A stretch of DNA of 64,000 bases, taken from assembly GCF_048551375.1 (NCBI RefSeq), contig NZ_JBLYZJ010000006.1, positions 80,051 through 144,050 of the forward strand. The letters run 5' to 3'. A model generated the notes under the pieces. It was given only the letters and a program-made list of their open reading frames with translations. It was not told the DNA's origin and did no database searches. A program made the translations under genes and the position numbers. Positions 10,039-45,535 of the stretch are shown piece after piece. How positions within the stretch are numbered: the first letter of the stretch is position 1; each line of letters begins with the position of its first letter. The stretch is from Moraxella sp. TY6 (GTDB lineage Bacteria; Pseudomonadota; Gammaproteobacteria; Pseudomonadales; Moraxellaceae).

Positions 10039-11301
10039 ATGACCACACAACAAAATCAAAATAAAAAATTAGGTGTCCACTCTGAAGTCGGTAAACTTCA
10101 CCGTGTGATGGTATGTACCCCCGGTTTGGCACACACTCGTTTAACCCCAGAAAATTGCGATAGCTTATTATTTGATGACGTATTATGGGTCAACCAAGCC
10201 AAACGTGACCACTTTGATTTCGCCACCAAAATGCGTGACCGCAATGTCGAAGTATTAGAAATGCACGACCTACTTGCCGAAACCGTCACCAATCCAGAGG
10301 CCCTAACATGGATTCTTGACCGCAAACTGACCCCAAACCGTGTAGAACTCACCACCCTTAATGAACTACGAAGCTGGTTTGAAGGCTTGACTGCTCGCCA
10401 ACAAGCAGAGTATTTGATTGGTGGCGTGAGTGTACATGATTTACCAAAAGAATTGGGCGGTAGTAGCCGTGATTTGGTCGAAATTTCTCACGGTCATGCA
10501 GGCTTTGCTTTGCCACCACTACCCAACACCATGTTCACTCGTGATACCACTGCATGGATTTATGGTGGCGTAACCCTAAACCCTATGTACTGGCCTGCTC
10601 GCCGTCAGGAAACCTTGCTAACTTCTGCAATTTATAAATTCCACCCCATGTTTGCCAATGAAGACTACAAAGTATGGTTTGGCAATCCTGATGAATACTT
10701 TGGTAATGCCACCCTTGAAGGCGGTGATATTTTCCCAATCGGTAAAGGCGTGGTCTTGGTCGGTATGGGCGAACGTTCATCCATTCAAGCAATTGAACAA
10801 CTTGCCTTGAGCCTATTTAAAAACAAAACTGCCGAACGTGTGATTGTCGCTGCTTTACCAAAATCACGCTCTGCCATGCACTTAGACACCGTATTTACCT
10901 TCTGTGACCGTGACTTGGTCAATATCTTCCCAGAAGTGGTAGACAATATTACCTCATTTAGCTTACGTCCAAGCGAAGATGGCAAAGGGCTAGATGTGCG
11001 TAAAGAAGACAAAAAATTCGTTGATGTTGTCGCCGAAGCATTGGGTCTAAAACAGCTTCGTGTGGTACAAACAGGCGGTGACGAATATGCCTCAGAACGT
11101 GAACAATGGGATGATGGTAATAACGTATTTGCCCTAGAACCCGGTGTGGTTGTCGGCTATGACCGCAACACTTATACCAATACCCTACTTCGTAAAGCAG
11201 GCGTGGAAGTCATCACCATCAGCTCATCTGAGCTAGGTCGTGGTCGTGGGGGCGGTCGTTGTATGACCTGTCCAATCATCCGTGATGCGGTGGATTATTA
11301 A
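10039..11301 (+). CDS. arcA: arginine deiminase
   Basis: 420 aa, ends ..[15 protein letters not shown] (catalytic Cys region); RBS AAAGGAG. Confidence 0.95.
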
Positions 11302-11354
11302 TTTGATGCTGATGTAAATATTGTAAATTATTAAGGCTTACGCAAAAATGCCAT

Positions 11355-11433
11355 TTGTAGGTTGGGTGGAAGAATGACACCCAACATAAACCATTGAAAT
11401 TGTTGGGTATCGCAAGCTCTACCCAACCTACGA
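11355..11433. repeat. hairpin repeat, family-1 variant (GTAGGTTGGGTG..CACCCAACCTAC)
   Basis: two palindromes bounded by gtaggttggg / cccaacctac in the arcA-arcB spacer. Confidence 0.55.
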
Positions 11434-11463
11434 TTTGGTTAAATGCGTAAGTCCTAATTATAA

Positions 11464-11585
11464 TCCCCCTCTTGCGGAATATATTCCTCACCTTTAAAAA
11501 AGGGGGACTTTGCCCTTGAATTAGATTGATATATAGGACAAAGCCCCCTCTTTCGTAAAGAGGGGGTTGGGGGAGATTCAAGGAA
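11464..11585. repeat. ~120-bp repeat, family 3
   Basis: cccctcttgcggaatatattcctcaccttt..agggggactt..ccccctctttcgtaaagagggggttgggggagatt; second copy at 56928-57050, half copy at 36599-36637. Confidence 0.8.
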
Positions 11586-11645
11586 AATGGTTAATAACAC
11601 TATTTTATACTAAGTAATGAAACAAAATTAAATACCAATACTTTT

Positions 11646-11720
11646 AACCCCTCCCCAGCCCTCCCCTTGTCAGGGGAGGGAGCAGTTCTCCCCCTGCTAA
11701 GGGGGAGTTAGAGGGGGTAA
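11646..11720. repeat. C/G-tract hairpin repeat, family 4, inverted copy
   Basis: reverse complement of 7430-7500 with a few mismatches. Confidence 0.7.
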
Positions 11721-11745
11721 AATTATAAAATTAAAGGAAAATATC

Positions 11746-12756
11746 ATGTCATTTAATCTACATAATCATAGCCTATTAAGCCTTGTTCATCATTCATCTC
11801 GTGATTTACGTTTTTTGCTTGATTTATCTCGTGACCTAAAACGTGCCAAATACAGCGGTACTGAGCAACAACGCCTAAAAGGCAAAAACATCGCCCTTAT
11901 TTTTGAAAAAACCTCAACTCGTACTCGTTGTGCTTTTGAAGTCGCTGCTTATGACCAAGGGGCAAACGTTACCTATATCGACCCAACCTCATCACAAATC
12001 GGTCACAAAGAATCCATGAAAGACACCGCTCGTGTATTGGGTCGTATGTATGATGCCATCGAATACCGTGGCTTTCGCCAAGAGTTGGTGCTTGACCTTG
12101 ACAAATATGCAGGCGTACCAATTTTTAACGGTTTGACCGATGAATTCCACCCAACCCAAATGTTGGCTGACGTACTTACCATGCTAGAAAATAGCGACAA
12201 ACCGCTACACGACATCAGCTATGTGTATGTGGGTGATGCTCGTAATAACATGGGTAACTCATTGCTATTGGTGGGGGCGAAACTGGGTATGGACGTGCGA
12301 ATTTGTGCCCCAAAAGCCCTACACCCTAGTGAAGATTTGGTCAAAATGTGCCAAGAATTTGCCGAACAAAGCGGTGCAAGAATCACCATCACTGATGACA
12401 TCAAACAAGCCGTGAATGGCGTGGACTTTATCCACACTGACGTTTGGGTATCCATGGGTGAGCCTATCGAATCATGGGGCGAGCGTATCGACATCTTGAT
12501 GCCTTATCAAGTCAACATGGACATGATGAAATTGGCAAACAATCCTCGTGTCAAATTCATGCACTGCTTGCCTGCATTCCACAACAGCGAAACCAAAGTC
12601 GGCAAACAAATCGCAGAACAATACCCAGCCCTTGCCAATGGTATCGAAGTGACCGAAGAAGTCTTTGAATCACCATACAACATCGCCTTTGAACAAGCTG
12701 AAAACCGTATGCACACCATCAAAGCTGTCATGGTATCAGCATTGGGTGGATTATAA
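11746..12756 (+). CDS. arcB: ornithine carbamoyltransferase (catabolic)
   Basis: 336 aa; STRTRCAFE and HCLPAFH motifs. Confidence 0.95.
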
Positions 12757-12765
12757 TCGTCAATT

Positions 12766-12817
12766 TTAGATAGACGTAGGGTGCGTTCAACGCACCTTTA
12801 TAAATCAATCGCTTAAC
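12766..12817. repeat. paired palindromic hairpins after arcB (REP-like; may act as attenuator or terminator)
   Basis: gtagggtgcgttcaacgcacc..gcttaacgcatcctac. Confidence 0.5.
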
Positions 12818-12871
12818 GCATCCTACGAATTCAAAAATATTGTGTGTATAAAAAATTAAAAGGAAATCACC

Positions 12872-13801
12872 ATGCGTATTGTTGTTGCTTTAGGTGGTAA
12901 TGCCCTACTACGGCGAGGTGAAGCACTCAGTGCCTCTAATCAACGTGAAAACGTGCGAATCGCCGCCAATCAAATCGCCAAAATTTATCCCAATAATCAA
13001 CTGGTTATCGCTCACGGTAATGGGCCTCAAGTTGGACTATTGGCACTGCAAGGGGCGGCTTACGAAAAAGTCGAAACCTACCCACTTGACGTGCTAGGGG
13101 CAGAAACCGAAGGTATGATTGGCTACATGATTGAGCAAGAAATGGGCAATCTACTACCTCAAGAAGTGCCACTTGCCACCATCTTGACCCAAGTCGAAGT
13201 CGATAGCCAAGACCCAGCGTTTCAGCGTCCGACCAAACCGATTGGACCTGTGTACGACAAAGACGAAGCCGAACGCCTTGCGACAGAAAAAAACTGGACG
13301 ATTGCCCCAGATGGCGATAAATTCCGCCGTGTGGTGGCTAGCCCACGCCCAAAACGTATCTTTGAAATCCGCCCTGTTAAATGGCTGTTGGACAATGGTA
13401 CAGTGGTGATTTGTGCAGGCGGTGGTGGTATTCCAACCTATTATGACCAAGCAGGTCATCTCACTGGTGTGGAGGCGGTCATTGACAAAGACCTGTGTTC
13501 TGCCCTACTCGCCCAAGAGCTAGAAGCGGATTTATTGGTCATTGCCACCGATGTCGATGCCACTTATATTGACTTCAAACAACCCACCCAAAAAGCCATC
13601 GCCCAAGCCAATCCAGCGGACTTAGAAGCCATGAATTTCCCAGATGGGTCGATGGGTCCAAAAATCCAAGCTGCTTGTGAATTTGCTCGTAACACAGGTA
13701 AAGTGGCGGTAATTGGCTCACTTGCCAATATTGAAGCGATTGTACAAGGCACATCAGGTACTCGTATCAGCACCGAATATCAAGGCGTACAGTATTGTTA
13801 A
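12872..13801 (+). CDS. arcC: carbamate kinase
   Basis: 309 aa; [13 protein letters not shown] start and GGGGIP motif. Confidence 0.95.
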
Positions 13802-13963
13802 CAAATATTCTGACGATGTTTTCGTTAAAGATTGCCTCAAATATTATCGACCAAAATATCGCTAATCCATAAAAGCGTATCAAAACTTTTATTATGTTAT
13901 TGTCAATTATCTTGATTGGCGATATTATCGTTAACTTTATTATGAATCTCTGAAGGCACTAAA

Positions 13964-14515
13964 ATGTCAAACGCCACTTTACCCCCACCCATTACTTCCC
14001 CACAAGGTCAAGACCCAGATTTTAAACCTAAGGTCGGCATCATCATGGGGTCACAGTCCGACTGGGATACCATGCAACACACCGCCCAACTGCTAGCCGA
14101 ATTTGGCGTGCCATTCGAGTGCGAAGTGGTATCGGCTCATCGCACGCCAGACCGCCTATTTGAGTATGCCAAAACCGCCAAAGCTCGTGGGCTAAATATC
14201 ATCATCGCAGGGGCAGGCGGGGCGGCTCATCTTCCGGGGATGTGTGCCAGTCAGACGGATTTGCCTGTGCTGGGTGTGCCTGTGAAATCGTCAATGTTAA
14301 GCGGTTGGGATAGCTTGCTGTCCATCGTGCAAATGCCAAAAGGTGTGGCAGTGGGAACGCTTGCCATCGGTACGGCAGGGGCGTTCAACGCAGGCTTGCT
14401 TGCGGTGCAGATGCTCGCAATTAGCGATGAAGCTTTGGCAAAACAAGTCAGCGATTTCCGTGCTAAACAAACCCAAAGTATTTTGGATAATCCAACGCCA
14501 GGTGTGATGAACTAG
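13964..14515 (+). CDS. purE: N5-carboxyaminoimidazole ribonucleotide mutase
   Basis: [29 protein letters not shown] typical of PurE. Confidence 0.9.
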
Positions 14516-14533
14516 CAGATTAAAGGGGATTTT

Positions 14534-15166
14534 ATGCAAAGCGTCTTGGATAATCTACTCAATCAGCTTGCTATACCACCGCATAAAATCTCTGACTGTT
14601 GGCACAATCTGACCCAACATTATGATGAACTTCACCGCCATTATCACAATCTCACCCATATCCAAGCCTTGCTCAGTCACTTTGAACGGATAAAACCGCA
14701 ACTGGCACAGCCGAGCGTTGTACTATTGGCGATTTTTTATCACGATGTGATTTATCAAACCCAAGGTAAAAATCCCAGTAGTAATGAACGCCAAAGTGCG
14801 GATTTTTTTATCCATGAATTAGGCGAATGTTTGCCAAACGATGTCGTTAATCGTGTGGTGGATTTTATCATGGCTACCGAAAAACACGAAATGGCGGATA
14901 AAACCGATAGCGATATGGCGTATTTTTTGGATATGGATTTGAGTATTTTGGGGCAAAGTGAGGCGATTTATCAAGCTTACGCCCAAGCGATTCGCCTTGA
15001 ATATCAACACGTTCCGAAGTTTTTGTATAATTTTAGCCGTAAAAAAGCGTTAAAGCATTTTTTGAATAGAGAACGGTTGTATTTTACGGATGATTTTGTT
15101 GAAAAATTTGAAGGGCAGGCGAGAGAAAATATTGCCAATGAAATCAATCAGCTAAAATTATGGTAA
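14534..15166 (+). CDS. HD-superfamily-like hypothetical protein (COG4339-like)
   Basis: 210 aa with HNLTHI...FYHDVIY (H..HD pattern). Confidence 0.4.
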   Translation: MQSVLDNLLNQLAIPPHKISDCWHNLTQHYDELHRHYHNLTHIQALLSHFERIKPQLAQPSVVLLAIFYHDVIYQTQGKNPSSNERQSADFFIHELGECLPNDVVNRVVDFIMATEKHEMADKTDSDMAYFLDMDLSILGQSEAIYQAYAQAIRLEYQHVPKFLYNFSRKKALKHFLNRERLYFTDDFVEKFEGQARENIANEINQLKLW

Positions 15167-15182
15167 TCACTTTTTCAATTCA

Positions 15183-15875
15183 TTATTGAAAAGTAGTAAT
15201 CAGCCAGTTTTTAAAATTTTGGTAAATGATGTTGTCTTGATTCACCAAGTTAAGGGCTTTTGAAATATCTTGCGTTGGTTTGCTTTGGGTTGCAAGCCAA
15301 GTATAAACCTTTGCTTTATCAAAGGCTTGCGGTTTAAAATGCTCTTTATCAAAACTTTCTATAAACTGCTCAATCTGTTGCCATTGGGTCAGTTGGTTTG
15401 GATTTAAGGTAAGTTTTAACCACGTTTCAAGATAGCCCTCATCTTGATTGTTTGGCATGAGCCATACGCCAATTGGGTTAAAATCAATATGTTCAAAGAC
15501 TAAGCCATGACTGGGTTCAACTGGCTGTCGTAAGCGAAAACCATATTGCTCACATACGTCACTCAACTGGTCGATATTTTGCTGTTGAATCGTGCGTTTT
15601 GGGGATTGGTGAAAATCCATGTCCATCAATGCCCCAATATGCGTATAGCGACCTTGAGGCAAGTCTTCAATCGCATAACCCAAAACATTCATAATGCCCT
15701 GTTTGCTGTTTTGGATTCTGACAGCCGTGTTAGGGGTCGTGAGTGCCAATTCCGCAGGCAAAACGACTTGAATATTCAGCGATAAGTTTAGCTGTTCAAA
15801 CTGCAAAAACTGCTCAATAAAGTGTTTATCACCATAGCCTTCTACCAATAAAAGCTTGTTGCTAGTGTTTTTCAT
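15183..15875 (-). CDS. TOPRIM-like (DUF4435/OLD-type) protein, AriB-like partner of the upstream ATPase
   Basis: 230 aa; N-terminal KLLLVEGYGDKHF resembles the OLD/DUF4435 TOPRIM motif; start ATG overlaps the upstream stop (TAATG). Confidence 0.45.
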   Translation of the reverse strand: MKNTSNKLLLVEGYGDKHFIEQFLQFEQLNLSLNIQVVLPAELALTTPNTAVRIQNSKQGIMNVLGYAIEDLPQGRYTHIGALMDMDFHQSPKRTIQQQNIDQLSDVCEQYGFRLRQPVEPSHGLVFEHIDFNPIGVWLMPNNQDEGYLETWLKLTLNPNQLTQWQQIEQFIESFDKEHFKPQAFDKAKVYTWLATQSKPTQDISKALNLVNQDNIIYQNFKNWLITTFQ

Positions 15876-16978
15876 TAGCGTACTTCCATTTGTATTTTGG
15901 TGAGGTGATACAGTTTTTCTTCATCAAATACAGTGGCGATAAGTTTGCCATTGTCTGATTTGCGGACGCTGTGACCCATACGAAATAGTACGCCGTCCAT
16001 GTCGGTGCGTTCTTTGGCGATTTGAGCGAAGCTTTCGATAGTGTCCCAACTGTGGGTGGTGGCGAATACTTGGATGTTAAAGCGGTGGGCGAGTTCAAAG
16101 ATTAGTCGCCATACTTCGGGTTGTACACTGTAATGTAAGCCGTTTTCAAATTCATCTATTAATAAAAAACCATTGCGAGAATTTATTACCTTAAAAATAA
16201 TTTGCAAAAGTCTAAATATTCCATCCCCCATACTATGTAAAGGAATTCTATTTTCTACTCCCTTTAAACGAACAAAAGGAACTCGAAAATTCGTATTAGT
16301 ATCAGTTAGAAATGCTATATTTTGAATATTTTCGTCAATTAATTGAAGCATTTTAACAACTAAATCTTCCTCATTTGTTAAGGCTATTTGCTCCCATTCG
16401 GTTGCTAAAGTTTCAATGTTAATAGAACCTGTATCAACAAATTGATATTTAGGAAATGGTGGGTAATCAATACCGCTAACACCTGTGACTAAACCACTAT
16501 TTATTAGCTTAAAGCTACTACGAATCATTAAGTCGTTACTAGGGAATTGATTTTTCAAGGTAAAGTAATTATCTGATTCATTAATGTATTTTGAAGAATC
16601 TAAAAAGCCAATATAACGATTTTGAGCATAACCTACTTGTAAATAAAAACTTTTACTACCAATATCAATAACATTTTGAGAAGAATCTTCACCTCTAGTC
16701 AGTAAATTTAGAAAAAGCTTTTCATCAAATTTTGGCTGAATTGTTTCAGTTTGCTCTGATTCTATTTTTAAAACACCATGTCTATTTACATTTCTGTTAT
16801 CAACCAGCTTTTGAACCGTTTTAAGGTCAAAACCACTCGCTAACAAAGCCAACGCCTCAAGGACGGTACTTTTTCCTGAATTATTTTTCCCCACAATCAA
16901 ATTCACATGACCCAATTTCTCAATCGTCACATCTTCCAAAATCCGAAAGTTTTTAATCGTCAAAGAATCTAAGTGCAT
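15875..16978 (-). CDS. ABC-type AAA_21/AAA_15 ATPase, AriA-like
   Basis: 367 aa; Walker A GKNNSGKST near the N-terminus, C-terminal LLIDEFENGLH / ATTHS; AT-rich central segment. Confidence 0.6.
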   Translation of the reverse strand: MHLDSLTIKNFRILEDVTIEKLGHVNLIVGKNNSGKSTVLEALALLASGFDLKTVQKLVDNRNVNRHGVLKIESEQTETIQPKFDEKLFLNLLTRGEDSSQNVIDIGSKSFYLQVGYAQNRYIGFLDSSKYINESDNYFTLKNQFPSNDLMIRSSFKLINSGLVTGVSGIDYPPFPKYQFVDTGSINIETLATEWEQIALTNEEDLVVKMLQLIDENIQNIAFLTDTNTNFRVPFVRLKGVENRIPLHSMGDGIFRLLQIIFKVINSRNGFLLIDEFENGLHYSVQPEVWRLIFELAHRFNIQVFATTHSWDTIESFAQIAKERTDMDGVLFRMGHSVRKSDNGKLIATVFDEEKLYHLTKIQMEVR

Positions 16979-17098
16979 AGCGATACCATTTATTTGAATT
17001 TATGGATAAAAAACCATTACCGTATCTTACCCATAAACTGAGCAACTTTCCACCCAGTTCAACGAACAATTACCTCAAAAAACTCATATAGCCATTCA

Positions 17099-18166
17099 CT
17101 AACCAAACTGCCCAAACTGCTTTGCCACTTGCTGTTGGTAGCCCTGCCAAACGTTGGACTGACTAGCCGTATCCACAAGCGACCCTTGCCAACGAGGAAT
17201 CACTGCCTGCATACGGTTAAGGCGGATTTGACTACTCGCCACCATCCGCTCATGCTGTAGCCGTTCAAACGCCACCAATGCCGATTCCCTATCGTTACAC
17301 ACCAGCCCCATATCACAGCCTGCCTTGAGTGCCGACATCAGTCTATCGCCTGCATCCCCTGCGACATGGGCGGCCTTCATCGACAAATCGTCCGAAAACA
17401 CCACCCCATCAAACCCCAACTGCTCACGAATGATGCCTTGCACCCATTTTGGCGAAAAACCTGCTGGTTTATCATCGATTTGGGTAAACACCACATGAGC
17501 AGGCATCAACGCATCCAATAACGACAAATTCCGCATAAAGGGTTGCATATCTTGTTGATAAATCTCATCAAAACTGCGGTCATCATGGGCATCAGCATGG
17601 TGCGAATCGGGTGCAACCGAGCCATGTCCGGGGAAATGCTTACCTGTGGTCGCCATGCCTGCGGATTTCATGCCACGCATAAACTCGGCTGACAAGGCAG
17701 TGATGGCAGTTGGGTGAGCATGAAACGCCCTGTCGCCAATTACCGCACTCACACCATTGACATCTAGCACAGGGGCAAAGCTAAAATCCACGCCCACGGC
17801 TAGCACTTCGGTTGCCATGACATAGCCACTGGCAAAGGCAAGCTCTAGGGCATTAATGGGGTTGGTGTCGAACAATTCACCCAGCTTTCCCATCGGTGGA
17901 ATGGGTGAAAAGCCTTGGCGAAAGCGAGCCACTCGTCCGCCCTCTTGGTCAACGGCAATCAAGATATTGGGATTGACGGCTCGAATGCTGTCGGTAAGCT
18001 CTCGGACTTGGGTCGGTGATTCGACATTGCGTCCGAATAGGATAACGCCACCGACATGAGGGTCGGCGAGGAGTTGTTGGTCTTCGGTGGTGAGGGTCGT
18101 GCCTGCTACATCTAGCATGAGTTGACCGATTTTTGGGGTTGAATGGGTTGTCATTGTGTTTTCCAA
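17099..18166 (-). CDS. nagZ: beta-N-acetylhexosaminidase (GH3)
   Basis: 355 aa; GH3 N-domain motifs (LIAVDQEGGRV, KHFPGHG). Confidence 0.85.
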   Translation of the reverse strand: MENTMTTHSTPKIGQLMLDVAGTTLTTEDQQLLADPHVGGVILFGRNVESPTQVRELTDSIRAVNPNILIAVDQEGGRVARFRQGFSPIPPMGKLGELFDTNPINALELAFASGYVMATEVLAVGVDFSFAPVLDVNGVSAVIGDRAFHAHPTAITALSAEFMRGMKSAGMATTGKHFPGHGSVAPDSHHADAHDDRSFDEIYQQDMQPFMRNLSLLDALMPAHVVFTQIDDKPAGFSPKWVQGIIREQLGFDGVVFSDDLSMKAAHVAGDAGDRLMSALKAGCDMGLVCNDRESALVAFERLQHERMVASSQIRLNRMQAVIPRWQGSLVDTASQSNVWQGYQQQVAKQFGQFG

Positions 18167-18211
18167 AGCTTACGATAAATTGGTTTATTTTACGCCAAAC
18201 GATGACCAAAA

Positions 18212-19081
18212 TCACTGCCGATTTAGTCGAGTCGGTTTCGGTAAAAGTGCCAAATCACTCACTCGACATGGATTGATGTCAATACCGCCTCGCCGTGTGT
18301 ACCACGCACGTACCATCAGATTTTTGGGCGAAAAGGCTTGTGTCAAATCACTAAAAATCTGCTCAACACACTGCTCGTGAAAGCCATTATGCTGACGGAA
18401 AGTCAAAATATACTCAAGCAAACTTGCCTTATCAATCGGCAAACTATCTATCACAATTTCCACCGTTCCCCAGTCTGGTTGATTGGTCACAGGACAGTTT
18501 GAACGCAGTAAATGCGAATGGAAAATTTGAGGTTGGCTCGCTGTTTCAGCAGTTTTGGCAAAGGCTAAACATGAATTATCAACGTCTTGGCTAATCGCAA
18601 TTTTTTTATTCCCATTAAATAAACAGTTGTCTAACGCATTGTCGATACATTCACCTTGCGGTTCGCTAATCGGTAGGCTTTGGGTGGTTTTAACGTCAAA
18701 AATATCAATCGTCACTTTGGCTTGTACGCAGGCTGATAGGTCGGTTTCAACGGTGTTTTTAACTGCTTGTTGATTGTCAAACTCGGTAAAATTTAGGCTG
18801 TTAAAGTAGAGTTTTAGCGATTTTGATTCGACAATATTGGGCGAAGTGGCAGGAATGGCAAGGCGAGCCATAGCGACTTGCGAAATGCCTTGTGGGTTGA
18901 GCCAAGACACTTCAAAGGCGTGCCACCAGTCCATACCAATACTTAAATTTTCGGCAGGTAGGGCGAGTTTGGCTCTGCCCAGTTCTCGTGGAATGGGGTA
19001 GAGAACTTGGGGGCTGTAGGTTTTTGGGTAATCGGTGCTTTGACCGAGTTTGGAATTTTCTGGGGTGTGATTAATATTCAT
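18212..19081 (-). CDS. queF: NADPH-dependent 7-cyano-7-deazaguanine reductase (single-chain type II)
   Basis: 289 aa; VESKSLKLYFNSL QueF motif. Confidence 0.8.
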   Translation of the reverse strand: MNINHTPENSKLGQSTDYPKTYSPQVLYPIPRELGRAKLALPAENLSIGMDWWHAFEVSWLNPQGISQVAMARLAIPATSPNIVESKSLKLYFNSLNFTEFDNQQAVKNTVETDLSACVQAKVTIDIFDVKTTQSLPISEPQGECIDNALDNCLFNGNKKIAISQDVDNSCLAFAKTAETASQPQIFHSHLLRSNCPVTNQPDWGTVEIVIDSLPIDKASLLEYILTFRQHNGFHEQCVEQIFSDLTQAFSPKNLMVRAWYTRRGGIDINPCRVSDLALLPKPTRLNRQ

Positions 19082-19096
19082 GTTTTGTCTTATTGG

Positions 19097-19429
19097 TTAA
19101 AAGTTATGTTCTTCCGAATTTAAGCTTAATTCAAATGTTTTACCGTTTTGTTCGGGTTGCCAGCCTTTTTCTAACGCAATTTCAATAGCTTGGGCGACTA
19201 ATTTTGGAGTAATGACTAAAGTTTCAAGATTATCAGCCCAAGAGCCAAAATGTCCAAAACCATCTAACATAACGTGTAATACGCAATTGCCATTTTCTTG
19301 TTTTTCAACAGCAAAGTTTAAACCGTCACCAGACATTAAATTCCAGTAGTCAGTTTTATGGCGAACTCGCCAACGATATTCAACATCATTAACAACAATT
19401 TTCCGAGAGCCTTTTTTTGGGATTGACAT
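19097..19429 (-). CDS. hypothetical protein
   Basis: 110-aa ORF, stop/start adjacent to neighbouring genes. Confidence 0.35.
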   Translation of the reverse strand: MSIPKKGSRKIVVNDVEYRWRVRHKTDYWNLMSGDGLNFAVEKQENGNCVLHVMLDGFGHFGSWADNLETLVITPKLVAQAIEIALEKGWQPEQNGKTFELSLNSEEHNF

Positions 19430-19430
19430 T

Positions 19431-20204
19431 TTATAGCCTTACTCTCGACCCATCTTTTAGCAAATAATACGCAATTGCATAAAAAATCCCTGTAAAAATC
19501 CCAATCGCCACCAACGACCCCCACACATTGACATCCGAATGCCCCAAAATCCCATAGCGAAACGCATTCACCATATACACAATCGGATTAATCAAGCTGA
19601 CATTTTGCCAAAACTCGGGCAAATCCTTGAGCGAATAAAACACCCCACCCAAATAGGTCAATGGGGTCAGCACAAAACTCGGCACAATCGAAATATCATC
19701 AAACGAGCGAGCAAACACCGCATTAATCATACCGCCAAGCGAAAATAGGGCAGAAGTCATCACCACGGTAAACACGGTGACAAACGCATGAACCAACGTC
19801 AGTTTGGTAAAAAATAACGCCAACAGCGTGACAATCAAACCAATCGCCAAACCACGAAATAGCCCACCTGCGATAAAACCCAATAAAATCGTGTGTTTAG
19901 AAATCGGACTGACGAGCATCTCTTCGATATTGCCATGAAACTTCGTCCCAAAAAAACTCGATACCACGTTGGAGTAGCTATTGGTAATCACCGCCATCAT
20001 AATCAACCCCGGTACGATAAACTGCATATACGGCACACCGCCCATGTCGCCCACTCGTGAGCCAATCATTTTACCAAAAATGATAAAATATAAGCTCATG
20101 GTAATGGCAGGGGGCAGTAGGGTTTGAGGCCAAATGCGTAAAATTCGGCGGATTTCTTTAATCGTCAGCGTGGTAAAGGCGACCCATTGTTTTTGAAAAT
20201 TCAT
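19431..20204 (-). CDS. ABC-2 family exporter permease
   Basis: 257 aa, 6 TM segments; 0-bp gap to the ATPase gene. Confidence 0.8.
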   Translation of the reverse strand: MNFQKQWVAFTTLTIKEIRRILRIWPQTLLPPAITMSLYFIIFGKMIGSRVGDMGGVPYMQFIVPGLIMMAVITNSYSNVVSSFFGTKFHGNIEEMLVSPISKHTILLGFIAGGLFRGLAIGLIVTLLALFFTKLTLVHAFVTVFTVVMTSALFSLGGMINAVFARSFDDISIVPSFVLTPLTYLGGVFYSLKDLPEFWQNVSLINPIVYMVNAFRYGILGHSDVNVWGSLVAIGIFTGIFYAIAYYLLKDGSRVRL

Positions 20205-42406: not shown

Positions 42407-45400
42407 ATGAGTGCAGGATTAATCAGACATCTAAAAGCCAAAACCGAACAAGATAGCAATACGGCTATTTTGCTTGCTCAATGGGAATTTGACCAAAAAC
42501 TGGTTGGCAAGGCTTTGGAAAATATTGCTAGCTATTATCCACACTTTAGCAGTCATAATGCTTCACATTCACACCAAATTCTTGTCAATATTGAGCGTTT
42601 ATTAGATAAAAATATAATTGAATTATCGGCTACAGATACTTGGCTGTTACTCGAATCTGCCTATTGGCATGATGTGGGTATGTTATTTAATAGCCAACAG
42701 GTTCAGGACATTATCAAAGATAGTAAGTTTAAAGAATATGTCGAAACCCTTGCCAATGATAATAGCCAAGATTTACACGAATTTGCGAAAAAATGGCATG
42801 ATACTGACTGGAAACAAGCCTTGGCAATGTATGACCATCCACAAAAAGGCGTGGAAAAATACCGCCAAATGGTGGCTGAATGGTATCGCCGTGACCATGC
42901 TAAAAACTCTCAACGTGTGGTCGCTGACCCTTTTGAAATTCTTGGTATTAACTCACCCCGCACCGAACTATTACCAAAACGCATTTATCGTTATTTAGGG
43001 CAAATTTGTCTTGCACATGGCACAAGTTTTGAGAGTGTCATGTCACAACTGCCCTATCGCCAAACAGGTATGGGAACAGAAAACTGCCATCCTCGATTTG
43101 TGGCGTGTATGCTACGCTTGGGCGATTTGTTTGATATTGATGATAACCGATTTTGCCCTGTTATGATGAAACAAACAACCATGCCAAAATTGAGTGAGGC
43201 TCATCATCATAAGCATTTGGCGATTCGTGAGTTTCAGCTTGATAACAAGACGGTCAGTATCACCGCAGAATGTGAAGATGAAGATGCGTATATCCAAACG
43301 CAGATGTGGTTTGGCTGGATTAAAGAAGAGATGCAAAATCAAATGTCACAATGGAAAAACATTGTGCCGAACCGTTCCTTTGGTCTGCTACCTACGATTC
43401 AAAAGCTTGATGTGGTGATGACAAGTTCTAAGATTTTGCTCAATAACAAGCCAATGAAGTTTGGGCTGGATGAGAAAAGTGCGATTGAGCTGTTGCAAGG
43501 TAGAAATCTGTACGATGATGAGACCAATATCTACCGTGAGCTGATTCAAAATGCGGTGGATGCGACCTATCTGCGAGTATGGATTGAGCATGGTATGCGT
43601 AAGCGTGAGATTACCGATGACTTCCATCCGTTTCATCCAAAGTTTCAAGAGATTTTGGAGAATTATCCGATTACCATTGATTTTGTAAAATTGGAAGATG
43701 AGCCGAATTCTGATTATAGTATTTGGCAGTTTAGTTTGACGGACAATGGGACTGGCATTAGCCTGAAAGATTTGGAGTATATGCAGAAGATTGCAGGGTC
43801 TAGTCGCAATGTTGAGAAAAAACGTTTAATGGCTGATATGCCTGTGTGGATGCGTCCGTCTGGTGCGTTTGGGATTGGGTTACATAGTGCGTTTTTGTTG
43901 CTAGATAAAGGCAGAGAGGAAGATAACAAGATTGTTCTTGAGACAAAGAGTATTGCGGATAATGCGTCTTATCGGATTGAGATGACTTCGCCAATTTCGG
44001 GGAATCAGGGGTACTGTTTTATTGAAAAATTAAGTGATGAAGAAAATTTAAAAAGGGATTATGGTACTAAGCTCAACATTAATATAAGGGTAGAAAGAAA
44101 AGGTAGAAGATATTTTTATCTATCTGATGAGTTTAAAGAAAACATATTAATAAATAAATACCAAAAAGAATTTGACACGTTAAAAACGCCAATTTTTGAT
44201 TTTTCTAAAATATTATTCATTACAAGAAAAATTCGTGAAAAAATCATTACAAATATCTCTGTACCAATAGAATTTAAGCATCTTGAAAGCATTAATAATA
44301 CAAATGGGAATGCTATCACGAATCCAATTAATAGCTTCACTCCCAATCATATACTTCGCATTTGGTATGGTAAAGAAAACTTATATGTATCTTTAATCAA
44401 TCTAAGCCAAGTTGACAGTCTTACATTTTTTGAGAGTAGCTTTAGATGTATGACTTATTTTAAAGGACAAGAAATAGACAGATTATCCGTCAATATTATT
44501 CCTTCGGACATGGATTTTTTCGGCTTTAATGCTAAAGAATCTCTTCAAATAGATAGAAATAAATGGAGCAAAAACTTCTTGGAAACTCTTGAAGAAAAAA
44601 ATTATTTCTTTGAATTGAATAAAAATATTATTATTGATAATTACTCTGATATTAAAGAGCATCTCTCAAATAGTAAAGTTATGAGTGCCTTACTTTACTA
44701 TTACAAGATAGAATACCTAGACAACAGTATTAAAGACTTATGGAAAGAGATGAAATTAACTACAAGTCATAATGTTAAATATAGTGCAAATCTTGATATT
44801 AGTTACAAAGGTTTAATAAGCTTAGACCAATTTACAATAGAAGAAGACACTACAGTAAATGGAAATTATATTAACAATATTAAAATCGAAGATTTACCGA
44901 ACAATACTATTGTAGTATCAAACTTGAACAATCATAACTATTTTTATGAAAATTTTGTAAATGAATGGTATAAATCAGGTGGAGATATTATTGAAACTAA
45001 AAGTGAAGAAATTAGAACCTTTAAGTTAAGAAAAATTAATCAAACTAATAATTTACTTTTTGAACATCTGAAAAATCAATTAAAGAGTAATGTTACAAGA
45101 ATAATATTAGATTCAGATGAGATAAGAGATTATAGTTTGAATTACTTGGAGGATATTATTTGTTTCAGTGAAGCTCATGAGAACTTTCTAGGAAATAATA
45201 CAAACCGTGAAAAGGTCTTCTTATCACCTTTTGCTTTCTTTAGAGATGATGAAAAAGCCATAATAGCTGTAGCAAATTTTGAATTTTTGTGTCAATCTGT
45301 GTTCGATGAGCTAAAGAAGAATGGAAAATATATCAGATTAGATTCAATCAAAGAAAAATATGAAAAATTCATTTCTCAAGCTGATGAATTAATGAAAAAT

Positions 45401-45535
45401 ATTCCAGAATGGGTTGAAGCAAGAGAGATGGGGAGAGACTTCATACCAAAAGATATTCGAGAGCTTGAAGATATGTTTAAACCATCAGATGAAGTTTTAA
45501 AGGCTTACGAATCTGAAAAAGAAAAAAGAAAATAA
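42407..45535 (+). CDS. 1042-aa HD-domain + GHKL (Hsp90/MORC-like) ATPase protein with AT-rich C-terminal extension; candidate defence or stress protein
   Basis: HD motif HSHQILVNIERLL..YWHDVGM (~42.56-42.68 kb); Bergerat-fold boxes RELIQNAVDA (43.53 kb), DNGTGIS (43.74 kb), GAFGIGLHSAF (43.86 kb); GC falls from about 42% to about 28% after ~43.95 kb. Confidence 0.8.
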   Translation: MSAGLIRHLKAKTEQDSNTAILLAQWEFDQKLVGKALENIASYYPHFSSHNASHSHQILVNIERLLDKNIIELSATDTWLLLESAYWHDVGMLFNSQQVQDIIKDSKFKEYVETLANDNSQDLHEFAKKWHDTDWKQALAMYDHPQKGVEKYRQMVAEWYRRDHAKNSQRVVADPFEILGINSPRTELLPKRIYRYLGQICLAHGTSFESVMSQLPYRQTGMGTENCHPRFVACMLRLGDLFDIDDNRFCPVMMKQTTMPKLSEAHHHKHLAIREFQLDNKTVSITAECEDEDAYIQTQMWFGWIKEEMQNQMSQWKNIVPNRSFGLLPTIQKLDVVMTSSKILLNNKPMKFGLDEKSAIELLQGRNLYDDETNIYRELIQNAVDATYLRVWIEHGMRKREITDDFHPFHPKFQEILENYPITIDFVKLEDEPNSDYSIWQFSLTDNGTGISLKDLEYMQKIAGSSRNVEKKRLMADMPVWMRPSGAFGIGLHSAFLLLDKGREEDNKIVLETKSIADNASYRIEMTSPISGNQGYCFIEKLSDEENLKRDYGTKLNINIRVERKGRRYFYLSDEFKENILINKYQKEFDTLKTPIFDFSKILFITRKIREKIITNISVPIEFKHLESINNTNGNAITNPINSFTPNHILRIWYGKENLYVSLINLSQVDSLTFFESSFRCMTYFKGQEIDRLSVNIIPSDMDFFGFNAKESLQIDRNKWSKNFLETLEEKNYFFELNKNIIIDNYSDIKEHLSNSKVMSALLYYYKIEYLDNSIKDLWKEMKLTTSHNVKYSANLDISYKGLISLDQFTIEEDTTVNGNYINNIKIEDLPNNTIVVSNLNNHNYFYENFVNEWYKSGGDIIETKSEEIRTFKLRKINQTNNLLFEHLKNQLKSNVTRIILDSDEIRDYSLNYLEDIICFSEAHENFLGNNTNREKVFLSPFAFFRDDEKAIIAVANFEFLCQSVFDELKKNGKYIRLDSIKEKYEKFISQADELMKNIPEWVEAREMGRDFIPKDIRELEDMFKPSDEVLKAYESEKEKRK

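What the first reader, a model, noticed from the sequence alone, without database searches (positions are those of the whole stretch)
15183..16978. PARIS-like two-gene module: ABC ATPase (AriA-like) translationally coupled to a TOPRIM-like DUF4435/OLD-type protein (AriB-like)
The 367-aa ORF has an N-terminal Walker A (GKNNSGKST) and C-terminal LLIDEFENGLH/ATTHS, i.e. the AAA_21/AAA_15 ABC-ATPase fold. Its central ~650 nt are strongly AT-rich. The downstream 230-aa ORF starts with LLLVEGYGDKHF, the acidic TOPRIM-like signature of OLD/DUF4435 proteins. Its ATG overlaps the ATPase stop (TAATG). The pair sits alone between purE/HD-like genes and nagZ, typical of an inserted defence cassette. This architecture matches the PARIS system (AriA + AriB), though a Gabija/OLD-like split nuclease cannot be excluded by eye.
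Basis: partly seen in the sequence, partly recalled or inferred. Interest (0 to 1): 0.6.

Follow-up and report, generated by a model that had tools for sequence, protein, structure and literature searches.

The report
Two-gene ATPase–nuclease defence candidate
A Moraxella chromosome carries a tightly coupled gene pair, an ATP-driven sensor-like protein and an OLD-type nuclease, that belongs to a catalogued but untested phage-defence candidate family (PADLOC PDC-M38); it resembles PARIS in layout but is not PARIS, and its ATPase has a swappable, hypervariable middle.

Summary
Two minus-strand ORFs, A (15875-16978, 367 aa) and B (15183-15875, 230 aa), overlap in TAATG. All quoted motifs are present, and the middle of A is strongly AT-rich.

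The A-B pairing is essentially obligate (71 of 72 genomic loci in many phyla). It also occurs on small Acinetobacter and Citrobacter plasmids.

In Moraxella osloensis-like strains the pair is present/absent polymorphic beside purE. With B 100% identical, the middle ~700 nt of A is replaced by unrelated AT-rich alleles.

Best reading: an untested OLD/PARIS-like abortive-infection module, with a variable ATPase insert as sensor and a Toprim nuclease as effector. It is a new member of a known kind and of moderate interest.

The parts
15875..16978 (-). Gene A: 367-aa SMC/Rad50-type ABC ATPase (PADLOC PDC-M38A; Pfam AAA_15/AAA_21)
16865..16891 (-). Walker A / P-loop GKNNSGKST (residues 30-38)
   Evidence: Translation. 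G30, G35 and K36 are invariant in 120 homologues.
16169..16864 (-). AT-rich hypervariable cassette of A (gene nt 115-810, about residues 39-270). The most variable part is residues 53-187.
   Evidence: GC 0.31 and GC3 0.19, against a background of 0.45+/-0.09. Mean pairwise identity of residues 53-187 is 18-23%, against 69-86% for the ATPase core. The equivalent segment is swapped between M. osloensis-like strains whose flanks are 97-99% identical. The window's own middle has no relative above 24% identity among the 60 closest homologues. Low pLDDT over about residues 63-185.
16220..16234 (-). ABC signature-like motif SMGDG (residues 249-253)
   Evidence: Translation. G251 and G253 are invariant and D252 is conserved in at least 90% of 120 homologues.
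16133..16165 (-). Walker B and D-loop LLIDEFENGLH (residues 272-282; D275, E276)
   Evidence: Translation. D275, E276, N279, G280, L281 and H282 are invariant.
16049..16063 (-). H-loop ATTHS (residues 306-310; H309)
   Evidence: Translation. T307, T308, H309 and S310 are invariant.
15873..15877 (-). TAATG stop/start overlap between A and B (translational coupling)
   Evidence: The same 1-nt overlap occurs in the M. osloensis-like loci. Plasmid copies have 4-nt overlaps. The gap is 0-30 nt in most of 71 loci.
15183..15875 (-). Gene B: 230-aa stand-alone OLD-type Toprim nuclease-like protein (Pfam DUF3226; PADLOC PDC-M38B)
15819..15854 (-). Toprim glutamate motif LLLVEGYGDKHF (E12, D16)
   Evidence: E12 is invariant and D16 is conserved in at least 90% of 142 representatives at <=50% identity. 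The motif aligns with the AriB segment KKRLLVEGRHDR, which holds E26 and D30. It corresponds by order to E400/E404 of Bp OLD.
15615..15623 (-). Toprim DxD motif (D85-M-D87)
   Evidence: D85 is invariant and D87 is conserved in at least 90%. Corresponds to D455/D457 of Bp OLD and D88/E90 of AriB.
15426..15440 (-). EGYLE motif at the start of the helical part (E146, E150), the likely second-metal ligand
   Evidence: E150 is invariant in 142 representatives. Helix 149-155 in the model. It matches E508 of Bp OLD by order. This equivalence is inferred, not superposed.
15315..15317 (-). K187, candidate catalytic lysine
   Evidence: Conserved in at least 90%. Lies in helix 182-195. Matches K562 of Bp OLD by order. 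Inferred.
16979..17098 (-). 120-nt spacer between nagZ and A. The promoter was not identified, and read-through from nagZ is possible.
   Evidence: No sigma-70-like or terminator-like site in this spacer. Sequence.

Best explanation
The pair is a chromosomal copy of the two-gene module that PADLOC lists as phage-defence candidate PDC-M38.

Gene A encodes an SMC/Rad50-type ABC ATPase. Its conserved head (Walker A, signature, Walker B, H-loop) is interrupted by a hypervariable insert. Gene B, translationally coupled to A, encodes a stand-alone OLD-type Toprim nuclease that keeps the full set of two-metal active-site residues.

The most likely mechanism, by analogy with PARIS, P2 Old and Gabija, is as follows. 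A oligomerises and holds B inactive. The variable insert of A recognises a phage-derived trigger. ATP-dependent rearrangement then releases or activates B. B cuts nucleic acid (tRNA or DNA) and arrests the infected cell, which is abortive infection.

Shown here:
- the family memberships
- the folds
- the conserved catalytic residues
- the obligate pairing of A with B
- the accessory and mobile distribution
- allelic replacement of the insert in A

Inferred only:
- that the module defends against phage
- that A sequesters B
- the substrate of B
- that the insert is the sensor
For: Family:
- A = PDC-M38A at 7.6e-120 and B = PDC-M38B at 4.4e-57, both full length.
- B = DUF3226.

Folds:
- B matches OLD nucleases, GajA, the retron Eco2 Toprim and AriB.
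- A matches SMC/Rad50 heads, PtuA, retron ATPases, AriA and GajA.

Active site of B:
- E12, D85 and E150 are invariant, and D16, D87 and K187 are conserved in at least 90% of 142 diverse representatives.
- Their order matches Bp OLD E400/E404, D455/D457, E508 and K562 (PMC6755086).
- It also matches AriB E26/D30/D88/E90 (PMC11464382).

A's ATPase motifs are invariant in 120 homologues.

Functional linkage:
- An A-family ORF lies directly upstream of B in 71 of 72 loci, from Moraxellaceae, cyanobacteria, Bacteroidota, Acidobacteriota, Chloroflexota and others.
- The stop/start overlap is conserved.

Accessory nature:
- In M. osloensis-like contigs with 94-96% identical flanks, either the pair (1821 nt) or an HD-like gene (717 nt) sits between purE and valS.
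- The pair is cargo on 6-14 kb Acinetobacter and Citrobacter plasmids.
- The taxonomic distribution is patchy.

Defence association:
- PDC systems were defined by being embedded in BREX, DISARM or type I RM loci (bioRxiv 10.1101/2024.01.29.577857).
- Of 125 immediate neighbours in 69 loci, 17 are Uma2/PDC-S03. Others hit HNH, MzaA, IetA, MADS or type IIG RM models.
- The neighbouring polA-valS slot in M. osloensis-like strains carries varying defence-like cargo.

Sensor inference:
- With B 100% identical, the middle of A is only 11-12% identical between alleles. There are 3 alleles in one clade.
- There are 27 middle classes among the 60 closest homologues.
- PARIS authors likewise see poorly conserved trigger-binding parts in AriA.
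Against: - No member of PDC-M38 has been tested. The PDC set is explicitly '145 untested' candidates.
- A different ATPase + separate Toprim candidate (HEC-01) showed no defence in that study's assays.
- In the window the pair lies among housekeeping genes (arc operon, purE, nagZ, queF), not in a defence island. Most Moraxellaceae contexts are housekeeping too.
- tblastn of B found no copy in 50,697 phage records.
- Carriage on small plasmids fits an addiction module equally well.
- The A insert is modelled with low confidence, so nothing can be said about how it would bind a trigger.
- A-B contact was not modelled.
- No promoter was found upstream of A.
Confidence: 0.6

Rival explanations
1. 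It is a genuine PARIS system (AriA + AriB), triggered by anti-restriction proteins such as Ocr and cleaving tRNA-Lys.
For: - The two-gene layout is the same.
- PADLOC AriA models hit A at 8.4e-30 and 1.8e-23.
Against: - B has no DUF4435 or AriB HMM hit at E<=1. Profile-to-sequence E is 0.39.
- B is structurally nearer to PH0156 and OLD than to AriB.
- A scores about 90 orders of magnitude better to PDC-M38A, and also better to AbiLi.
- A has 367 aa, whereas AriA is 55 kDa with helical coiled-coil inserts. The insert here is predicted partly beta and of low confidence.
Confidence: 0.04
2. It is a divergent AbiL system (AbiLi ATPase + AbiLii Toprim), the lactococcal abortive-infection pair.
For: - A matches the PADLOC AbiLi model over its full length at 3.4e-56.
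- AbiLii is also predicted to be an OLD-type Toprim protein (PMC13064643).
Against: - B hits no PADLOC model other than PDC-M38B at E<=1, so it gives no AbiLii hit.
- The PDC-M38A model fits A far better than AbiLi does.
- PADLOC curators kept PDC-M38 apart from known systems.
Confidence: 0.1
3. It is mainly a toxin-antitoxin-like addiction or stabilisation module of mobile DNA, with B as toxin and A as antitoxin and no dedicated phage-sensing role.
For: - The pair is the main cargo of small plasmids, including a 6.4 kb ColE-type and a 9.7 kb tet(39) plasmid.
- Translational coupling is tight.
- PARIS itself behaves as a type II TA pair.
Against: - An addiction module gives no reason for a hypervariable, allelically swapped ATPase insert beside a constant nuclease.
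- The pair is stably chromosomal near purE/valS across Moraxellaceae.
- Some neighbours are defence genes.
- The two roles are not mutually exclusive.
Confidence: 0.15
4. It is a housekeeping DNA repair or recombination pair, analogous to RecF/RecR (ABC ATPase + Toprim) or SbcCD.
For: - A shows weak hits to RecF, RecN, Rad50 and SbcC N-termini.
- A's fold resembles Rad50/SMC heads.
- The neighbours in the window are housekeeping genes.
Against: - All those hits fall far below the family cut-offs and cover only the P-loop region.
- The pair is present/absent between strains of one species.
- It is borne on plasmids.
- It is patchy across phyla.
- The middle of A is hypervariable.
- The OLD-type nuclease residues of B are conserved.
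Confidence: 0.04

Closest known systems
PADLOC phage-defence candidate PDC-M38 (PDC-M38A + PDC-M38B)
   Same: Both proteins match the family models over their full length (7.6e-120 and 4.4e-57). The genes are adjacent, co-directional and overlapping.
   Different: Nothing structural differs. The family has never been tested experimentally. This copy has a unique insert in A, with at most 24% identity to any of the 60 closest homologues.
PARIS (AriA ABC ATPase + AriB DUF4435 Toprim nuclease)
   Same: Two separate, coupled genes: an AAA_15/21 ABC ATPase plus a stand-alone Toprim nuclease. B carries an E-x3-D ... D-x-D/E acidic site. Poorly conserved presumed trigger-binding parts sit in the ATPase.
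   Different: B is DUF3226, not DUF4435. A is about 110 residues shorter than AriA and lacks its helical coiled-coil inserts. A scores much better to other families. The trigger and the substrate are unknown.
AbiL (AbiLi + AbiLii) of Lactococcus
   Same: A is AbiLi-like over its full length (3.4e-56). AbiLii is also predicted to be an OLD-type Toprim protein.
   Different: B does not hit any AbiLii model. The host phylum differs, and the mechanism of AbiL is itself unknown.
OLD family nucleases (P2 Old, class 1 Ts OLD, class 2 Bp OLD) and Gabija GajA
   Different: In OLD and GajA the ATPase and the Toprim domain are one polypeptide, whereas here they are split. No GajB-like helicase gene adjoins the pair in the window.
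PH0156 of Pyrococcus horikoshii (PDB 2p62), an uncharacterised archaeal protein
   Different: Only 14% identity. Its function is unknown, and its partner gene was not examined here.

Membership tests
PADLOC PDC-M38 | Gene A matches a PDC-M38A model | tested here: met
   PDLC04611 7.6e-120, residues 1-367 against model positions 1-383 of 383
PADLOC PDC-M38 | Gene B matches a PDC-M38B model | tested here: met
   PDLC04623 4.4e-57, residues 6-230 against model positions 3-219 of 219
PADLOC PDC-M38 | The two genes are adjacent on one strand | tested here: met
   TAATG overlap. Same arrangement in 71 of 72 loci.
PADLOC PDC-M38 | Anti-phage activity | not testable with these tools
   The PDC set is explicitly untested.
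Pfam DUF3226 (PF11536) | Score above the gathering threshold over the whole domain | tested here: met
   124.1 bits against a cut-off of 27, model positions 2-208 of 208. NCBI names the identical protein 'DUF3226 domain-containing'.
PARIS (AriA/AriB) | Effector is an AriB-family DUF4435 (PF14491) Toprim protein | tested here: not met
PARIS (AriA/AriB) | ATPase is of the AriA family | tested here: inconclusive
PARIS (AriA/AriB) | AriA of 55 kDa with helical inserts IS1/IS2 forming a coiled-coil bundle and a trigger-binding pore | tested here: not met
   A has 367 aa. Its insert (residues about 53-187) is predicted as short helices plus beta strands at low pLDDT. The AriA description comes from PMC11464382.
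PARIS (AriA/AriB) | Activation by Ocr-like anti-restriction proteins, and tRNA-Lys cleavage | not testable with these tools
   Needs experiments.
AbiL | AbiLi-type ATPase | tested here: met
   PDLC02336 3.4e-56, residues 5-367 against model positions 4-340 of 340. This is the second-best family.
AbiL | AbiLii-type second protein | tested here: not met
   Only PDC-M38B models hit B at E<=1.
OLD-type Toprim nuclease catalytic core | Toprim fold with an invariant Glu and a DxD motif | tested here: met
OLD-type Toprim nuclease catalytic core | Second-metal ligands (E404/E508 equivalents) and a catalytic Lys (K562 equivalent) from a helical domain | tested here: inconclusive
   D16, E150 and K187 are conserved and in the right order.
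Class 1/2 OLD and Gabija | ATPase and Toprim fused in one polypeptide; for Gabija also a GajB UvrD-type helicase next door | tested here: not met
   The proteins are separate. The top 150 B-family representatives are all stand-alone, 150-251 aa. The neighbours are purE, an HD-like gene and nagZ.
Retron-associated (class 3) OLD-like systems | Adjacent reverse transcriptase and msr/msd ncRNA | tested here: not met
   No RT ORF nearby. No Rfam match in 12000-20000 at E<=0.1.

The most novel reading that the evidence does not exclude
The middle ~700 nt of the ATPase gene may be a swappable specificity cassette.

Unrelated, AT-rich insert alleles would be exchanged within and between Moraxellaceae species by homologous recombination. 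The anchors would be the highly conserved 5' and 3' ATPase-core sequences. These are 92% and 83% identical at the DNA level between the window and M. osloensis-like strains, against 72% for purE and 54% for B.

A population would then hold a repertoire of phage-trigger sensors, all wired to one constant Toprim nuclease. This would be a modular way of diversifying innate immune recognition, comparable in logic to hsdS target-recognition-domain swapping.
Probability: 0.4. Interest if true: 0.6.

Novelty: new member of a known kind. Interest (0 to 1): 0.35.

Why it matters
ABC ATPase plus Toprim nuclease pairs (OLD, Gabija, PARIS, AbiL, retron effectors) are a major theme in bacterial immunity. 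The DUF3226 branch (PDC-M38) has about 2,300 cluster representatives at 50% identity and no experimental data.

This locus offers a compact 1.8 kb test case with clear mutational targets:
- A: K36, E276
- B: E12, D85/D87, E150, K187

The natural alleles differ only in the ATPase insert, while the nuclease and flanks stay identical. Allele swapping would therefore be a direct experiment on which part of such ATPases senses infection.

If the pair proves inactive or acts purely as an addiction module, that would also help prune defence-prediction catalogues.

Tried and rejected
- Sequence search of B against PDB chains found nothing meaningful (E 0.43 to an unrelated protein). The B profile gave only a marginal AriB hit.
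- Literature searches for 'DUF3226' and 'PDC-M38' returned no papers.
- hhalign of the B family against the RloB protein next to valS in L002 gave probability 7%, so no relationship was demonstrated.
- I first took L090 vs L091 (same B; A called as 371 vs 347 aa) as a second case of insert swapping. Alignment showed 99.6% identity, and only the start call differs, so I rejected it.
- There are no extra or silent copies of A or B segments in the window, so pilS-like cassette donation within this window is excluded.
- Promoter and terminator scans found nothing in the nagZ-A spacer or after B.
- There is no Rfam hit and no tRNA, so there is no retron ncRNA and no tRNA-linked integration site.
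- Short direct and inverted repeats around the pair look like chance in AT-rich DNA. This includes a 22-nt, 77% inverted repeat near both cassette borders.
- tblastn of B against phage genomes found no match.
- NCBIfam gave only sub-threshold P-loop hits.
- The HD-like neighbour and three other nearby ORFs have no PADLOC hit.
- One paper id (PMC11479591) was not held.
Full report
**1. Observation.**
The finding is accurate to the base.
- Two ORFs lie on the minus strand: A (15875-16978, 367 aa) and B (15183-15875, 230 aa).
- The stop of A and the start of B share one base (TAATG at 15873-15877).
- Every quoted motif translates at the expected place: GKNNSGKST, SMGDG, LLIDEFENGLH and ATTHS in A, and LLLVEGYGDKHF in B.
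- The AT-rich centre is real and unusual. Gene nt 115-810 of A (window 16169-16864) has GC 0.31 and GC3 0.19. In 122 background windows of 230 codons from other genes, GC3 has mean 0.45, sd 0.09 and minimum 0.21.
- Amino-acid composition is similar in the middle and the ends of A, so the bias lies in codon choice.
- The window comes from an unclassified Moraxella (assembly GCA_048551455.1). Both proteins exist there as identical NCBI entries, named 'AAA family ATPase' and 'DUF3226 domain-containing protein'.

**2. What the proteins are.**

*Protein A.*
- It hits Pfam AAA_15 (4.6e-31) and AAA_21 (3.4e-19).
- In PADLOC its best match is PDC-M38A (7.6e-120, end to end). AbiLi follows at 3.4e-56, and AriA is far behind at 8.4e-30.
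- Walker A, Walker B and H-loop residues (G30, K36, D275, E276, H309) and G251/G253 of the signature motif are invariant in 120 homologues; D252 is conserved in at least 90%.

*Protein B.*
- It is Pfam DUF3226 (8.5e-36, full length) and PADLOC PDC-M38B (4.4e-57). No DUF4435, AriB or AbiLii model hits at E<=1.
- Its AF2 model is confident (pLDDT 88, pTM 0.87).

*Active site of B.*
- A profile search of 1.84 billion representatives finds 2,333 relatives at E<=1e-3. All of the best 150 are stand-alone proteins, 150-251 aa long.
- In an alignment of 142 of them, E12, D85 and E150 are invariant. D16, D87 and K187 are conserved in at least 90%.
- The order E-x3-D, D-x-D, E, K mirrors the two-metal site of Bp OLD: E400/E404, D455/D457, E508 and K562 (PMC6755086).
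- It also mirrors the acidic cluster of AriB: E26, D30, D88, E90, E122 (PMC11464382).
- I could not superpose coordinates. The equivalence of E150 and K187 is therefore inferred from order and secondary structure only.

**3. Is it a functional unit?**
- A genome scan with the B profile returned 73 loci. They come from Moraxellaceae, Nostocales and other cyanobacteria, Saprospiraceae, Vicinamibacterales, Chloroflexota, Planctomycetota, Omnitrophota and others.
- My HMM scan of their ORFs found an A-family ATPase directly upstream on the same strand in 71 of the 72 loci with a B hit. The gap is usually 0-30 nt. The single exception is cut by the contig end.
- The same pair, with 4-nt overlaps, is cargo on small plasmids. 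Examples are a 9.7 kb tet(39) plasmid of Acinetobacter cumulans and a 6.4 kb ColE-type mobilizable plasmid of Citrobacter freundii.
- tblastn of B found no match in 50,697 phage records.
- The pair is therefore an autonomous, horizontally mobile two-gene module.

**4. Is it an insertion?**
- In M. osloensis-like metagenomic contigs the B homologue (47-48% identical) also abuts purE, but the other flank is valS.
- Other strains of the same clade carry purE - HD-like gene - valS with no A/B.
- blastn shows flanks 94-96% identical. Homology breaks exactly at the purE stop and resumes about 67 nt before valS. Between those points lies either 717 nt (HD-like gene) or 1821 nt (B+A).
- The window has both the HD-like gene and the pair.
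- This clean alternative-cargo polymorphism supports the 'cassette' idea.
- However, the recurrent purE/valS neighbourhood in several Moraxellaceae suggests long residence at this locus with gains and losses, rather than a recent arrival.
- No tRNA gene was found, and no repeats beyond short, probably chance matches flank the pair (neighbouring ORFs).

**5. The AT-rich middle is a hypervariable, swappable segment.** This is the most interesting result.
- Across 120 homologues, residues 53-187 of A average 18% pairwise identity, with length 98-169 aa. The N-terminal 52 residues average 73% and the C-terminal 127 residues 69%.
- Two M. osloensis-like contigs (L002, L003) have B, purE, valS and spacers 97-100% identical. 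They differ only in gene nt 115-806/905 of A, which is unalignable (46%) and AT-rich in both (GC 0.27 and 0.30).
- At the protein level, with B 100% identical, the middle of A is 11-12% identical. A third allele occurs in L012.
- Among the 60 closest homologues there are 27 middle classes. The window's own middle is a singleton, with a best match of 24%.
- Between the window and L002, the first 115 nt of A are 92% identical and the last 294 nt are 83%. purE is 72%, the HD-like gene 69% and B 54%.
- The conserved ATPase-core ends could therefore serve as recombination anchors. This is an inference.
- The idea that inserts of defence ABC ATPases diversify as sensors has already been proposed for PARIS and for HEC systems. 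The principle is therefore not new. The within-species allelic replacement beside a constant nuclease is a neat natural example of it.

**6. Defence association.**
- PDC-M38 is one of 145 'phage defence candidates' that PADLOC authors derived from genes embedded in BREX, DISARM or type I RM loci. None of them has been tested.
- Of 125 immediate neighbours of the pair in 69 loci, 17 are Uma2/PDC-S03 (all cyanobacterial, and itself only a candidate). A handful hit HNH, MzaA, IetA, MADS or type IIG RM models. Most are housekeeping genes.
- In M. osloensis-like strains the adjacent polA-valS slot carries varying defence-like cargo: AAA_15/21+RloB, an MC6-containing set, or GmrSD_N+PIN.
- In the window itself the neighbours are housekeeping genes.
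- The association is suggestive, not strong.

**7. Mechanism.**
The best-supported model follows PARIS (AriA hexamer sequesters AriB; trigger binding releases AriB, which cleaves tRNA-Lys) and OLD/Gabija.
- A is an ATP-dependent scaffold or sensor.
- Its variable insert recognises a phage cue.
- B is the metal-dependent nuclease effector that arrests the cell.

The folds, the intact catalytic motifs in both proteins, the obligate coupling and the variability pattern are shown here. Complex formation, the trigger, the substrate and the defence phenotype are inferred.

I put 0.9 on the module being PDC-M38 (ABC ATPase + OLD-type Toprim), about 0.6-0.65 on a phage-defence role, and about 0.35 on PARIS-like sequestration and release specifically.

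**8. Comparison and verdict.**
- It is not PARIS. The defining AriB/DUF4435 effector was tested and not met.
- It is not AbiL, because no AbiLii model hits B.
- It is not a fused OLD or Gabija, and it is not retron-linked (no RT ORF, no Rfam hit).
- It is a member of the catalogued but uncharacterised PDC-M38 / DUF3226 branch of the OLD-like ATPase+Toprim class.
- Novelty: new member of a known kind.
- Interest is moderate (0.35). Most of it comes from the natural insert-swap alleles, which make the 'which part senses?' question directly testable.

Noticed in passing
window 22119-29390 (- strand): A 2005-aa protein with DUF3686 ('ATPase involved in DNA repair'), DUF7902 and an AAA domain (22119-28136). 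Immediately upstream of it on the same (minus) strand lies a 415-aa DUF4062 protein (28143-29390) with very low GC (0.29, GC3 0.23). Neither has a PADLOC hit. This could be another conflict or accessory system.
   Followed up: partly
window 14534-15166 (+); L083 6001-6633; L087 6001-6633: The HD-like 210-aa ORF next to B has no Pfam or PADLOC hit. UniRef names it an HD domain protein. In M. osloensis-like strains it is the alternative occupant of the purE-valS slot that otherwise holds the A-B pair. The window carries both.
   Followed up: partly
L002 1701-3753; L003 931-3643; L009 1-3781; L087 9783-12260: The slot between polA and valS in M. osloensis-like contigs carries different defence-like cargo in different strains: an AAA_15/AAA_21 ATPase + RloB, an MC6-containing gene set, AAA_5 genes, or GmrSD_N + PIN. 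It looks like a variable defence hot spot next to the A-B locus.
   Followed up: no
window 16175-16196 and 16819-16840: A 22-nt inverted repeat (77% complementary) lies just inside both borders of the AT-rich variable cassette of A. It is probably chance in AT-rich DNA.
   Followed up: no
L093 336-980; L094 209-853: In some Moraxellaceae-like contigs an intact B (P0071) follows an A gene called at only 214 aa, the C-terminal half alone. This may be a decayed or mis-called ATPase.
   Followed up: no
L017-L057 (cyanobacterial loci), immediate neighbours of the pair: 17 of 125 neighbouring ORFs are Uma2-family putative endonucleases (PADLOC PDC-S03). These are genes adjacent to the A-B pair in the cyanobacterial loci.
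   Followed up: no
window 42407-45535 (+): A 1042-aa ORF with low GC (0.34, GC3 0.31) relative to the window (0.43). It may be another horizontally acquired gene and was not examined.
   Followed up: no
window 10039-13801 (+): A complete arginine deiminase pathway cluster (arcA, ornithine carbamoyltransferase, carbamate kinase) lies upstream of purE.
   Followed up: no
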